A stretch of DNA of 14,689 bases from a bacterium. GTDB lineage: Bacteria > SAR324 > NAC60-12. Shown one piece after another: positions 6,510-7,157 of this stretch. Position numbers and translations under genes: made by a program. Where the stretch lies: assembly GCA_965233585.1 (NCBI GenBank), contig CBDDTI010000304.1, positions 1 through 14,689 of the forward strand, given 5' to 3'. Every line of letters begins with the position of its first letter. Within the stretch, counting starts at the first letter, position 1. A model generated the notes under the pieces. It did not search any database, was not told where the DNA came from, and saw only the letters and a list, made by a program, of their open reading frames with translations.

Positions 6510-7157
6510 ATGGAATTGAAGCACAATACTGAGTCAATTTACCCGAAATTGCCATCTGCTCCTGCGGAAGATGAGGGGCAGAGTTATCGTTTGCAGAGAA
6601 TAAATGAGATTCATAAAATCCTCGAGGGAGAAAAAGAAGAACGAGCGAGTCTGAGCAAAAAGTACCACAGGGCGGTGAAGATAGTAGACGGTATTGATGT
6701 CGCCCTTATCGGAACAACAATGGGGCTTGGTATCGGAGGTCTTGGTCTATTATCGACGATAGTGGCAGCACCGATTGTTATCGTGATGGAGGGAGTAGCG
6801 CTGGGCACTGGTGCCTTGAGTATCGTAGGAAAATACGTCAATAAAAAATTTTCGGCAAAGGCAGAGAAACACGAAAGGATAAAGACACTCGCGGTTTCAA
6901 AGCTCAACACCATTTCTTCTTACATCTCAAAGGCGTTAGTCGATAACAAGATTAGTGATGAAGAGTTTCAACTGATCTTGTCAGAGTTGGACAAATACCG
7001 CGAGCTGAAAGAAGAAGTGAGGCGGAAATCAAAGAAACGTATGGACTATGAACTACAACAGTCCCTTATCGAACAGGGAAGACAGGAAGCACGTGAGTCT
7101 ATTCGCAAGTTGTTTGAAAAAAATAATTCTGATCAAACGATGAAAACGACGATGTAA
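6510..7157 (+). CDS. Putative membrane protein (coiled coil - hydrophobic hairpin - coiled coil) with N-terminal YPKL/PSAP motifs
   Basis: ATG 6510 is in AAAAATG context; the track's 6462 start overlaps the upstream gene. The protein contains IYPKLPSAP, a Gly-rich hydrophobic segment VALIGTTMGLGIGGLGLLSTIVAAPIVIVMEGVALGTGALSIV, and KALVDNKISDEEF. Confidence 0.75.
   Translation: MELKHNTESIYPKLPSAPAEDEGQSYRLQRINEIHKILEGEKEERASLSKKYHRAVKIVDGIDVALIGTTMGLGIGGLGLLSTIVAAPIVIVMEGVALGTGALSIVGKYVNKKFSAKAEKHERIKTLAVSKLNTISSYISKALVDNKISDEEFQLILSELDKYRELKEEVRRKSKKRMDYELQQSLIEQGRQEARESIRKLFEKNNSDQTMKTTM

What the first reader, a model, noticed from the sequence alone, without database searches (positions are those of the whole stretch)
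6510..7157. Adjacent YPxL and PSAP ESCRT late-domain motifs on a predicted membrane protein of a jelly-roll virus
Seen: the N-terminal IYPKLPSAP (about 6537-6563) is followed by a coiled coil, a ~40-aa Gly-rich hydrophobic hairpin and a second coiled coil. Established: YPxL binds ALIX and P(S/T)AP binds TSG101 during budding of enveloped viruses. Inference: the element may recruit ESCRT for quasi-enveloped egress or membrane remodelling, which is not part of the standard picture of Polintons as far as I know.
Basis: partly seen in the sequence, partly recalled or inferred. Interest (0 to 1): 0.7.

Follow-up and report, generated by a model that had tools for sequence, protein, structure and literature searches.

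The report
Conserved ESCRT-type late-domain protein in Polintons
A gene in the capsid-gene block of this virus-like transposon encodes a small membrane-hairpin protein whose loose N-terminal tail carries the two short motifs that budding viruses use to recruit the cell's membrane-cutting machinery, and these motifs are kept across hundreds of distant relatives, which suggests that such elements may leave cells wrapped in membrane.

Summary
ORF 6510-7157(+) encodes 215 aa with IYPKL-PSAP at residues 10-18 (nt 6537-6563), then a long helix, a 44-aa Gly-rich hydrophobic hairpin and two more helices. It lies in the virion-gene block of a Polinton/Maverick-type element.

The family is large and unnamed: 1702 representatives at E<=1e-3, no Pfam family. 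The motifs are under selection:
- [LI]YPx[LI] occurs in 73 of 85 usable N-termini of 50%-identity representatives.
- P[ST]AP occurs in 40 of 85; shuffled tails give about 3 and 0.5.
- The flanks vary in sequence and length.
- The two motifs swap order between clades (17 of 47; 93 of 106 in one clade).

The tail is modelled as coil. Both hairpin flanks are net positive (94 and 98 of 98), so the tail should face the cytosol.

Best reading: a membrane-anchored adaptor that recruits ALIX and TSG101, working like orbivirus NS3 but not homologous to it. ESCRT binding and a role in egress are inferred, not shown. I found no paper linking Polintons, Mavericks or adintoviruses to ESCRT.

The parts
6510..7157 (+). 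ORF of 215 aa plus stop codon: the late-domain-bearing membrane-hairpin protein (P0002)
   Evidence: 285 homologs at E<=1e-3 among 774 candidates. 1702 representatives at E<=1e-3. No Pfam family.
6510..6569 (+). Residues 1-20: N-terminal tail modelled without secondary structure; it carries both motifs
   Evidence: AlphaFold2 gives no secondary structure for 1-20, with pLDDT 60-74. Length and sequence are variable in homologs apart from the motifs.
6537..6551 (+). I-Y-P-K-L (residues 10-14): [LI]YPx[LI] motif of the ALIX/Bro1-binding type
   Evidence: Y11 and P12 are at least 90% conserved in 98 sequences. YPx[LIVM] is present in 101 of 105 and 73 of 85 usable N-termini. Position -1 is I or L in 67 of 73; x takes 13 different residues; last position L 64, I 7, V 2.
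6552..6563 (+). P-S-A-P (residues 15-18): P[ST]AP motif of the TSG101 UEV-binding type
   Evidence: P[ST]AP is present in 87 of 105 and 40 of 85 usable N-termini; shuffled means are 0.3 and 0.5. It is the only P[ST]AP in the window's open frames. It lies upstream of YPxL in other clades.
6570..6698 (+). Residues 21-63: hydrophilic part of helix 1, ending in a K/R-rich juxtamembrane stretch
   Evidence: Helix 21-80, pLDDT above 90. R27 is invariant. The N flank is net positive in 94 of 98.
6699..6830 (+). Residues 64-107: 44-aa Gly-rich hydrophobic helical hairpin (turn at 81-83, conserved P88 and E94)
   Evidence: Core length is 44 in 88 of 98, median mean hydropathy 1.71, P88 in 91 of 98, E94 in 73 of 98.
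6831..7151 (+). Residues 108-214: K/R-rich juxtamembrane stretch and two long helices. This is the best-conserved part of the family
   Evidence: Helices 84-145 and 150-214. K120 is invariant and K117, H121, I124, A128, K131 and L132 are nearly invariant. The C flank is net positive in 98 of 98.
7339..8680 (+). Two downstream ORFs (290 aa and 155 aa) that stay linked to the gene in other elements
   Evidence: L001 has the order homolog, 287-aa ORF, 134-aa ORF, capsid protein. P0150 is a fused gene call covering all three.
5461..6486 (+). Two upstream ORFs (192 aa, Gly-rich with a weak pX-like hit; and 129 aa) that stay linked to the gene in other elements
   Evidence: Fused gene calls P0195 and P0045/P0056 join their homologs to the target homolog. 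Adeno_PX hit at E 0.017, below Pfam's cut-off.
9660..10943 (+). Double jelly-roll major capsid protein: the context that defines the virion-gene block
   Evidence: PF21738, E 1.8e-54.

Best explanation
ORF 6510-7157 is a conserved gene of the virion-gene block of animal Polinton/Maverick (adintovirus-like) elements. It encodes a protein of about 215 aa.

Proposed anatomy: a 44-aa Gly-rich helical hairpin anchors the protein in a cellular membrane, with both ends in the cytosol. The long flanking helices pack into a cytosolic stalk. The unstructured N-terminal tail carries a two-part ESCRT late domain: [LI]YPx[LI], the ALIX/Bro1 type, and P[ST]AP, the TSG101/Vps23 UEV type.

Proposed mechanism: the protein collects at a membrane, probably near assembled capsids. 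Its tail recruits ALIX and ESCRT-I, and through them ESCRT-III and VPS4. These carry out membrane scission that releases particles, or particle-containing vesicles, without lysis. In function this matches orbivirus NS3.

Shown here: the motifs, their conservation and permutation, the coil-like tail, the hydrophobic hairpin with positive flanks, and the conserved gene neighbourhood. Inferred: cytosolic orientation (positive-inside rule), ESCRT binding, and the egress or envelopment role.
For: 1. Motif presence. IYPKL-PSAP at residues 10-18. It is the only P[ST]AP in 8640 aa of open frames in the window.

2. Conservation.
- 90%-identity clusters, 105 usable N-termini of 120: YPx[LIVM] 101, P[ST]AP 87, [PA][ST]AP 99. 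Shuffled-tail means are 3.7, 0.3 and 0.6.
- 50%-identity representatives, 85 usable of 150: 73, 40 and 49, against shuffled means 2.7, 0.5 and 0.9.
- The rest of the protein carries these motifs in 0-1 of 97-105 sequences.

3. Fine structure fits the LYPxL type, not a generic Yxx-hydrophobic signal. Position -1 is I or L in 67 of 73, P follows Y (Y11 and P12 at least 90% in 98 rows), x takes 13 residues, last position L 64, I 7, V 2.

4. Modularity. Of 47 distant representatives with both motifs, 29 have YPxL first, 17 have P[ST]AP first and 1 has it on both sides. In the clade around P0159 the order P[ST]AP then YPxL holds in 93 of 106 usable N-termini (116 sequences, 10 unusable). On a FastTree of the core region (75 rows, motif columns excluded) the arrangement needs at least 30 changes, and well-supported branches alone force 4 for YP-first and 2 for SAP-first.

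5. Accessibility. The tail is modelled as coil. The hydrophobic core has constant length (44 aa in 88 of 98). The N flank is net positive in 94 of 98 and the C flank in 98 of 98. There is no N-terminal signal-like segment.

6. Context. The gene sits inside the capsid-gene block, and the linkage recurs in L001, P0150, P0045/P0056 and P0195.

7. Precedent. Bluetongue virus NS3 is a two-transmembrane protein with PSAP and PPRY that binds TSG101 and NEDD4 and drives non-lytic release of a non-enveloped capsid (passages of PMC7409164). HIV-1 p6 combines PTAP with LYPXnL (abstract of PMC2651531 in the listing).
Against: - No binding or release data exist. ESCRT recruitment rests on motif identity alone.
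- P[ST]AP is present in only 40 of 85 distant representatives, 26 of 85 have YPxL alone and 10 of 85 have neither. At least three of those ten are mis-anchored or fused gene calls. So the TSG101 arm is dispensable in many lineages.
- YPKL also fits the generic tyrosine sorting signal (Yxx-hydrophobic).
- Counts are inflated by multi-copy elements: 60 identical tails occur. Shuffles ignore shared descent.
- N-termini come from automatic gene calls on unnamed contigs.
- The first hydrophobic arm is only about 17 residues (64-80), so the hairpin may be monotopic and not bilayer-spanning.
- The window has no fusogen-sized ORF, so how membrane-wrapped particles would enter a cell is unexplained.
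- Foldseek gives weak resemblance (E 0.02-0.3) to SLATT two-transmembrane effector domains, which are annotated as pore-formers.
Confidence: 0.6

Rival explanations
1. Virion-internal membrane-active core protein used at entry. It would be a counterpart of adenovirus protein VI, in the 'Macc' class with a holin-like hydrophobic domain. The tail motifs would act after endosome damage, for trafficking or to deal with ESCRT-mediated membrane repair, not at egress.
For: The gene lies among virion genes. The Buck-lab preprint defines a class of hypothetical membrane-active capsid core proteins, some with 'holin-like hydrophobic domains' (passage read). Adenovirus protein VI carries a PPxY motif that recruits Nedd4 ligases (recalled, not checked here).
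Against: The same element already has a PLA2-like protein (3305-3823, E 5.2e-10) and a Gly-rich ORF with a weak pX-like hit (5461-6039, E 0.017) that fit the entry-lysis role. A 44-aa hydrophobic hairpin of constant length with basic flanks on both sides looks like a stably inserted membrane protein, not an amphipathic lytic peptide. No protease cleavage pattern was looked for.
Confidence: 0.15
2. The motifs are real short linear motifs but serve something other than ESCRT. YPx[LI] could be a tyrosine-based sorting signal for clathrin adaptors, and the Pro-rich stretch a ligand for another host or viral partner.
For: YPKL matches Yxx-hydrophobic. I and V occur at the last position in 9 of 73. 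P[ST]AP is lost in many lineages.
Against: Pro after Tyr is kept (Y11 and P12 at least 90% in 98 rows), and I or L precedes Tyr in 67 of 73. A generic sorting signal requires neither; both belong to the LYPxL consensus. YPxL/I is the form recognised by PalA and ALIX (recalled). The second motif recurs as exactly P[ST]AP or A[ST]AP on either side of the first (PSAP 25, PTAP 15, ATAP 5, ASAP 5 occurrences). PPxY is not enriched: 0 of 105 and 5 of 85, against shuffled means 2.3 and 2.2.
Confidence: 0.12
3. ESCRT is recruited, but not for particle release. The protein would divert or sequester ESCRT, for example to sort host surface proteins into multivesicular bodies, to keep damaged membranes repaired and delay cell death, or to block budding of competing viruses.
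For: The evidence for ESCRT engagement is the same as for the best explanation. Nothing in the data ties the protein to capsids except gene position.
Against: The gene sits among structural genes rather than among accessory or cargo genes. The best-conserved region is the cytosolic stalk, which suggests a conserved viral partner.
Confidence: 0.08
4. Pore-forming holin- or viroporin-like lysis protein. The N-terminal motifs would be incidental or only modulate turnover.
For: Gly-rich two-helix hydrophobic hairpin with a conserved intramembrane Glu (E94 in 73 of 98). Weak Foldseek resemblance to SLATT two-transmembrane effector domains (E 0.02-0.3).
Against: This does not explain selection on two canonical ESCRT-binding motifs and their permutation. 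None of the 25 Pfam families matched by most of the 98 members (the part of the 154 matched families that one search lists) is a SLATT or holin family.
Confidence: 0.04
5. Chance co-occurrence of two short motifs in a lineage-specific ORF.
For: Four-residue motifs are common in proteomes.
Against: Conservation in 73 of 85 and 40 of 85 distant representatives against shuffled means of 2.7 and 0.5. The flanks are variable. The order is permuted.
Confidence: 0.01

Closest known systems
Orbivirus NS3 (bluetongue virus)
   Same: A small viral membrane protein with two transmembrane segments and late-domain motifs (PSAP plus PPRY). It binds TSG101 and NEDD4 and drives non-lytic budding of a non-enveloped capsid (passages of PMC7409164). 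That both ends are cytosolic and that the motifs lie in the N-terminal part is recalled, not taken from those passages.
   Different: No detectable homology: no Pfam hit, and a bluetongue NS3 fragment is only rank 49 in the viral fold search (E 0.44). NS3 has a 21-aa glycosylated lumenal loop; here the turn is 3 residues. The second motif is PPxY in NS3 and YPxL here. NS3 belongs to a dsRNA virus; this is a dsDNA integrating element.
Retroviral Gag late domains (HIV-1 p6 PTAP plus LYPXnL; EIAV p9 LYPDL)
   Same: The same two motif types sit together in a short tail. HIV-1 p6 recruits Tsg101 and Alix through PTAP and LYPXnL (abstract of PMC2651531 in the listing). That such tails are unstructured is recalled.
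   Different: In retroviruses the motifs are part of the capsid polyprotein itself. Here they sit on a separate integral membrane protein. The EIAV motif is recalled.
Quasi-enveloped non-enveloped viruses (hepatitis A virus capsid YPX3L; hepatitis E virus ORF3 PSAP)
   Same: Naked capsids released in host membrane through ESCRT-associated Bro1-domain proteins (abstract of the HAV preprint 10.1101/2022.04.26.489493 in the listing). The HEV ORF3 PSAP and the HAV motif spelling are recalled.
   Different: Unrelated proteins of RNA viruses. In HAV the motif is on the capsid protein.
Uncharacterised proteins of invertebrate iridescent viruses (A0A5B8RH66, A0A068QKD3, S6DF61)
   Same: The only significant structural matches: E 1.9e-8 to 1.2e-7, 25-30% identity, TM-score 0.57-0.69 on the query. 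They are probably true homologs.
   Different: Their sequences could not be fetched, so whether they carry the motifs is unknown. Their function is unknown.
Membrane-active capsid core proteins of adintoviruses and adenoviruses (PLA2X, pX-like, protein VI; 'Macc')
   Same: Membrane-active proteins encoded in the virion-gene block of the same virus group (passages of PMC8502044; passages of 10.1101/2024.03.25.586562).
   Different: Those papers' main texts contain neither 'late domain', 'PTAP' nor 'transmembrane'; 'ESCRT' was searched for in the second only, and no paper in the library holds both adintovir- and ESCRT. The present protein has a long two-helix hydrophobic hairpin and a long helical stalk, not a lipase or a short amphipathic peptide.
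Cellular ESCRT adaptors (syntenin LYPxL motifs; LITAF with PSAP/PPxY plus a membrane-inserted hairpin; ARRDC1)
   Same: Short N-terminal motifs recruit ALIX or TSG101 to a membrane and drive vesicle formation (recalled, not checked here).
   Different: No sequence or fold relationship was found.
Nematode Maverick gB-like fusogen MFUS-1 (Widen et al., preprint 10.1101/2022.07.12.499685)
   Same: The only published suggestion I found that Mavericks could form enveloped particles (passages read).
   Different: It is a different gene, an 866-aa class III fusogen. That text contains neither 'ESCRT', 'budding' nor 'vesicle'. This window has no such ORF.

Membership tests
P(S/T)AP late domain (TSG101/Vps23 UEV ligand) | P-[ST]-A-P tetrapeptide | tested here: met
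   PSAP at residues 15-18. It is the only one in the window's open frames.
P(S/T)AP late domain (TSG101/Vps23 UEV ligand) | Kept by selection in relatives | tested here: met
   87 of 105 and 40 of 85 usable N-termini, against shuffled means 0.3 and 0.5. It recurs on either side of YPxL. It is not universal.
P(S/T)AP late domain (TSG101/Vps23 UEV ligand) | Lies in an accessible, cytosol-facing, unstructured segment | tested here: inconclusive
   Modelled as coil. The hairpin flanks are net positive in 94 and 98 of 98, which predicts a cytosolic tail. This is prediction only; no topology experiment exists.
P(S/T)AP late domain (TSG101/Vps23 UEV ligand) | Binds the TSG101 UEV domain; mutation causes a late budding defect | not testable with these tools
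YPxnL / LYPxL late domain (ALIX/Bro1-family V-domain ligand) | [L]-Y-P-x(1-3)-L/I motif | tested here: met
   IYPKL at residues 10-14. In 73 distant representatives, position -1 is I 35 and L 32, and the last position is L 64, I 7, V 2.
YPxnL / LYPxL late domain (ALIX/Bro1-family V-domain ligand) | Kept by selection in relatives | tested here: met
   101 of 105 and 73 of 85, against shuffled means 3.7 and 2.7. Y11 and P12 are at least 90% conserved in 98 rows.
YPxnL / LYPxL late domain (ALIX/Bro1-family V-domain ligand) | Binds the ALIX V domain | not testable with these tools
   No host ALIX sequence was available, and the feature needs bench work.
Orbivirus NS3 family | Sequence or fold homology to NS3 | tested here: not met
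   No Pfam family at E<=0.01. None of the 25 families matched by most of the 98 members at E<=1, the part of the 154 matched families that one search lists, is an NS3 family. The bluetongue NS3 fragment is rank 49 at E 0.44.
Orbivirus NS3 family | Two transmembrane segments joined by a glycosylated lumenal loop | tested here: not met
   There are two hydrophobic arms, but the turn is 3 residues (81-83) and the core length is fixed at 44 aa in 88 of 98. NS3 has a 21-aa loop.
SLATT two-transmembrane effector domain | Match to the SLATT profiles or fold | tested here: inconclusive
   Foldseek E 0.02-0.3 to giant-virus and Tetraselmis-virus SLATT proteins. No SLATT family is among the 25 families matched by most of 98 members.
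Polinton/Maverick (adintovirus-like) element | Double jelly-roll capsid protein, A32/FtsK-type packaging ATPase, rve integrase | tested here: met
   PF21738 E 1.8e-54, PF04665 E 8e-10, PF00665 E 5.2e-8.
Polinton/Maverick (adintovirus-like) element | Protein-primed family B DNA polymerase and adenain-like protease | tested here: inconclusive
   ORF 3-2066(-) runs off the window and hits only Rho_N and Endonuclease_7 in Pfam. Its exonuclease-like motifs are my reading of the sequence. No protease family was found in any ORF.

The most novel reading that the evidence does not exclude
Polinton/Maverick/adintovirus-type elements across animals, and perhaps related invertebrate iridescent viruses, carry an old, dedicated ESCRT-hijacking membrane adaptor in their virion-gene block. 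If so, their double jelly-roll capsids would leave cells without lysis, wrapped in host membrane, either quasi-enveloped or inside vesicles. That would give these 'transposons' a concrete cell-to-cell and soma-to-germline route, and a mechanism for the cross-species transfers attributed to them.
Probability: 0.35. Interest if true: 0.85.

Novelty: new variant of a known kind. Interest (0 to 1): 0.72.

Why it matters
Polintons/Mavericks are thought to be viruses, but no particle, egress route or transmission mechanism has been shown for the animal elements. A conserved two-part late domain on a membrane-anchored protein inside the capsid-gene block gives a specific, cheap test: peptide binding to ALIX and TSG101, release assays and VPS4 dependence.

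If the test is positive, ESCRT-dependent release, so far known mainly from enveloped RNA viruses and a few naked RNA viruses, would extend to the double jelly-roll DNA virus lineage. It would also complement the proposal, based on a captured fusogen, that nematode Mavericks form enveloped particles.

The family is also worth naming. It is large and unannotated: 1702 representatives at 50% identity.

Tried and rejected
- Self-association. Complex prediction with two copies of the protein (alignment A1) returned 'no answer' (median score 0.02 against a mark of 0.42). This counts neither for nor against oligomerisation.
- Solved-structure fold search. No match at E<=0.001; the best was E 0.21, and the hits were generic long helical bundles.
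- Profile search of PDB sequences. Best E 0.3.
- Pfam at E<=1 on all 98 members. Only sub-threshold, composition-driven hits such as DUF2207_C, RTX N-terminal and IncD/IncE.
- ESM Atlas. It returned only unnamed clusters of the same family: Mollusca, and one cluster with 58% viral members, Preplasmiviricota.
The only organism name seen is Dreissena polymorpha, so host range stays unchecked.
- DNA context of relatives. The search for related loci with A1 failed for lack of conserved stretches. With A2 it found one 3162-bp contig in which the N-terminus is cut off; that contig was useful for gene order only.
- Closed collections.
- Iridovirus matches. Their sequences could not be retrieved, so their motifs stay unchecked.
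- ESCRT binding.
- Supplements. The supplementary annotation files of PMC8502044 were not opened and bioRxiv supplements are closed. They may already list this gene under another label.
- Rejected: chance co-occurrence.
- Rejected: PPxY-type late domain (0 of 105 and 5 of 85, at or below shuffled expectation).
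Full report
WHAT IS THERE

The window is an animal Polinton/Maverick-type element. Pfam finds:
- a double jelly-roll major capsid protein (9660-10943, E 1.8e-54);
- an A32-type packaging ATPase (3858-4631, E 8e-10);
- an rve integrase with a chromodomain (2392-3201, minus strand);
- a DUF5679 plus PLA2-like protein (3305-3823, minus strand) (all).

A long minus-strand ORF (3-2066) runs off the left end. It looks to me like the N-terminal part of a protein-primed polymerase, but Pfam does not confirm this.

The finding concerns ORF 6510-7157(+), 215 aa. 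The ATG at 6510 is the likely start. Full-length homologs begin ME[YFM]K a few residues before the motif, and the upstream ATG at 6462 overlaps the preceding ORF.

ANATOMY

An AlphaFold2 model built on a 98-sequence alignment is confident (mean pLDDT 89.7, pTM 0.76).
- Residues 1-20 have no secondary structure (pLDDT 60-74).
- Three long helices follow: 21-80, 84-145 and 150-214.
- The hydrophobic stretch is residues 64-107 (44 aa, 10 Gly, peak 19-residue hydropathy 2.13). It spans the end of helix 1, a three-residue turn and the start of helix 2, so it is a tight helical hairpin.

Across the 98 aligned family members:
- the hydrophobic core is 44 aa long in 88;
- its median mean hydropathy is 1.71;
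- P88 next to the turn is kept in 91, and a Glu inside the second arm (E94) in 73;
- the 18 residues before the core are net positive in 94, and the 18 after it in 98.

There is no N-terminal signal-like segment. By the positive-inside rule both ends, including the motif-bearing tail, should face the cytosol. This is a prediction, not a measurement. The first arm is short (about 17 residues), so a monotopic insertion is possible; that would also leave both ends on the cytosolic side.

THE FAMILY

The protein matches no Pfam family. That holds at E<=0.01. At E<=1 over all 98 members, one search gives only sub-threshold, composition-type hits. It also has no relative among PDB sequences (best E 0.3) and no significant solved-structure match (best E 0.21).

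It is nevertheless a large family:
- 285 proteins at E<=1e-3 among 774 word-index candidates;
- 1702 cluster representatives at 50% identity at E<=1e-3, of which 652 reach 1e-10.

Many hits lie on contigs of megabase length, so they come from eukaryotic genome assemblies. The only organism name returned was a hypothetical protein of the zebra mussel Dreissena polymorpha (P0111, 56% identity). The ESM Atlas placed the query next to unnamed clusters recorded mostly from Mollusca, and next to one cluster with 58% viral members, Preplasmiviricota.

In the viral structure library the only significant matches are uncharacterised proteins of three invertebrate iridescent viruses (E 1.9e-8 to 1.2e-7, 25-30% identity). 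Weaker matches go to SLATT two-transmembrane domains (E 0.02-0.3). A bluetongue virus NS3 fragment is rank 49 (E 0.44).

GENE NEIGHBOURHOOD

The gene sits between the ATPase and the major capsid protein. The linkage is conserved.
- A 3162-bp contig filed in a bacterial MAG (L001) carries, in order, a homolog (62% identity, N-terminus cut by the contig end), a 287-aa homolog of window ORF 7339-8211, a 134-aa homolog of 8213-8680, and the capsid protein.
- P0150 is a fused gene call that joins homologs of the target, 7339-8211 and 8213-8680.
- P0045 and P0056 join the upstream ORF 6097-6486 to the target.
- P0195 begins with a homolog of ORF 5461-6039.

ARE THE MOTIFS MORE THAN CHANCE?

Within the window, P[ST]AP occurs once in 8640 aa of open frames, and it is this one. 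The decisive evidence is comparative. I defined the tail as everything before the conserved Y/F-R-L anchor. I kept sequences that start with Met and have at least 8 tail residues (at most 150).

90%-identity clusters (105 of 120 usable; 15 dropped as N-terminally truncated or unanchored):

| Motif | Present | Shuffled-tail mean |
|---|---|---|
| YPx[LIVM] | 101 of 105 | 3.7 |
| P[ST]AP | 87 of 105 | 0.3 |
| [PA][ST]AP | 99 of 105 | 0.6 |

50%-identity representatives (85 of 150 usable; 65 dropped, mostly fragments):

| Motif | Present | Shuffled-tail mean |
|---|---|---|
| YPx[LIVM] | 73 of 85 | 2.7 |
| P[ST]AP | 40 of 85 | 0.5 |
| [PA][ST]AP | 49 of 85 | 0.9 |

- The remainder of the protein carries either motif in 0-1 of 97-105 sequences.
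- PPxY is not enriched: 0 of 105 and 5 of 85.
- Ten of the 85 have neither motif. At least three of these are visibly mis-anchored or fused gene calls, and several have tails of 8-13 residues.

FINE STRUCTURE OF THE MOTIFS

Around the Tyr in the 73 distant representatives:
- position -1 is I (35) or L (32);
- the variable position takes 13 different residues;
- the last position is L 64, I 7, V 2.

Pro follows Tyr: Y11 and P12 are each at least 90% conserved in the 98-row alignment. The consensus is therefore [LI]-Y-P-x-[LI], the LYPxL form, and not merely Tyr-x-x-hydrophobic.

The second motif occurs as PSAP 25, PTAP 15, ATAP 5 and ASAP 5. The surrounding tail varies in length from 8 to more than 50 residues and is poorly alignable.

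PERMUTATION OF THE TWO MOTIFS

- Of the 47 distant representatives that have both motifs, 29 have YPxL first, 17 have [PA][ST]AP first and 1 has it on both sides. The offsets cluster at +4 and at -6 to -10.
- A second homolog search seeded with a 'reversed' member (P0159) returned 116 sequences. Of these, 106 had usable tails and 93 had P[ST]AP upstream of YPxL. Sixty of them share one identical tail, so this count is inflated by multi-copy elements.
- On a FastTree of the core region (75 rows, tail excluded) the arrangement states need at least 30 changes, against a shuffled mean of 39.5. Well-supported branches alone force at least 4 changes for YP-first and 2 for SAP-first. The tree is poorly resolved (10 of 72 inner branches starred), so these are rough figures.

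The picture is of a near-universal YPxL module and a more labile P[ST]AP module that is lost, regained or relocated. Short linear motifs recognised independently by two host proteins would behave this way.

INTERPRETATION

Established knowledge:
- P(S/T)AP binds the UEV domain of TSG101 (ESCRT-I).
- LYPxnL binds the V domain of ALIX.
- HIV-1 p6 uses both (abstract of PMC2651531, listing).

The closest working analogue is bluetongue virus NS3. It is a membrane protein with two transmembrane segments, carries PSAP and PPRY, binds TSG101 and NEDD4, and mediates non-lytic budding of a non-enveloped capsid (passages of PMC7409164).

I therefore think the protein is a membrane-anchored ESCRT adaptor of the element's morphogenesis module. 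The hairpin fixes it in a membrane. The well-conserved cytosolic stalk (K117 to L157 region) probably contacts a viral partner. The tail brings in ALIX and, in many lineages, ESCRT-I.

It works like NS3 but is not a member of that family. There is no sequence or significant fold similarity, and it has a 3-residue turn where NS3 has a 21-aa glycosylated loop.

RIVALS

- Entry-phase membrane-active core protein, like adenovirus protein VI. The 'Macc' class with holin-like hydrophobic domains is described in the preprint read. The element already has a PLA2-like gene and a Gly-rich ORF with a weak pX-like hit (E 0.017) that fit that role.
- The Tyr motif as a generic sorting signal. The conserved Pro and the preceding Ile/Leu argue against it.
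- ESCRT diversion for purposes other than release.
- A pore or lysis function, suggested by the conserved intramembrane Glu and the weak SLATT resemblance.
- Chance, which is excluded.

IS IT KNOWN?

Full-text searches of the held library returned the following.

| Terms | Papers |
|---|---|
| Polinton + 'late domain' | 0 |
| Polinton + ESCRT | 2, both unrelated by title and abstract |
| Mavericks + ESCRT | 2, both unrelated |
| adintovir- + ESCRT | 0 |
| polinto- + TSG101 | 0 |

- The adintovirus paper (PMC8502044, term search of the main text) describes three classes of membrane-active proteins: PLA2, gasdermin-like and cupiennin-like. It contains neither 'late domain', 'PTAP' nor 'transmembrane'.
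- The Widen et al. preprint (passages) proposes that nematode Mavericks form enveloped particles because they captured a gB-like fusogen. It contains neither 'ESCRT', 'budding' nor 'vesicle'.
- Supplements of these papers were not seen and might list the gene under another label. Subscription journals are outside the library.

VERDICT

ESCRT recruitment is the best-supported reading (about 0.6). An egress or envelopment role is plausible but inferred. It is a new variant of a known kind of system: a viral late-domain adaptor, here in a new protein family and a virus group where none was known.

Noticed in passing
window 7137-7311: Tandem repeat of 12-bp units (14.6 copies; also read as a 36-bp period, 4.8 copies, 94% matches). 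It starts inside the last codons of the ORF and fills most of the gap to the next ORF. The last residues of the protein are encoded by the first repeat units.
   Followed up: partly
window 8712-9074 and 9201-9590: Two adjacent ORFs (120 and 129 aa) are paralogs of each other (29% identity over 100 aa, E 1e-13). They have no Pfam family. They lie between the 155-aa ORF and the capsid gene and are absent at that place in L001.
   Followed up: partly
window 11552-12685: A 377-aa ORF downstream of the capsid block has only a sub-threshold GIY-YIG hit (E 0.14). By my reading it looks like the C-terminal part of a Penelope-like retroelement (recalled resemblance). It is possibly a separate insertion.
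   Followed up: no
window 5461-6039: A 192-aa Gly-rich ORF has a weak Adeno_PX hit (E 0.017, below the cut-off). It is a candidate pX-like membrane-active core protein. Its homolog is fused to the target's homolog in gene call P0195.
   Followed up: partly
window 3305-3823 (-): A DUF5679 zinc-ribbon-like domain plus a parvovirus-type PLA2-like domain (E 2.6e-12 and 5.2e-10). This matches the PLA2 class described for Alpha-type adintovirus virion modules.
   Followed up: partly
window 3-2066 (-) and 10979-11329 (+): Both ORFs begin with a Rho_N (SAP-like) domain (E 8.5e-9 and 5.3e-3). The small ORF after the capsid gene may be a duplicated N-terminal module of the polymerase-like ORF.
   Followed up: no
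BFVD entries A0A5B8RH66, A0A068QKD3, S6DF61: Uncharacterised proteins of three invertebrate iridescent viruses are the only significant structural matches (E about 1e-8, 25-30% identity). This suggests gene sharing between Polinton-type elements and iridoviruses of invertebrates. Their N-termini could not be inspected.
   Followed up: no
L001 1-3162: A contig filed under an uncultured Verrucomicrobiales MAG carries four Polinton virion genes, including the double jelly-roll capsid protein. Most likely it is eukaryotic or viral DNA binned into a bacterial genome.
   Followed up: partly
window 6771-6773 (P88) and 6789-6791 (E94): A Pro beside the hairpin turn (91 of 98) and a Glu inside the second hydrophobic arm (73 of 98) are conserved. 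A buried acidic residue hints at oligomerisation or ion conduction.
   Followed up: no
window 6611-6913 (-): A 100-aa antisense ORF lies wholly inside the target gene, opposite the Gly-rich hairpin codons. L001 has a similar antisense ORF. It is probably a by-product of codon composition and not a gene.
   Followed up: no
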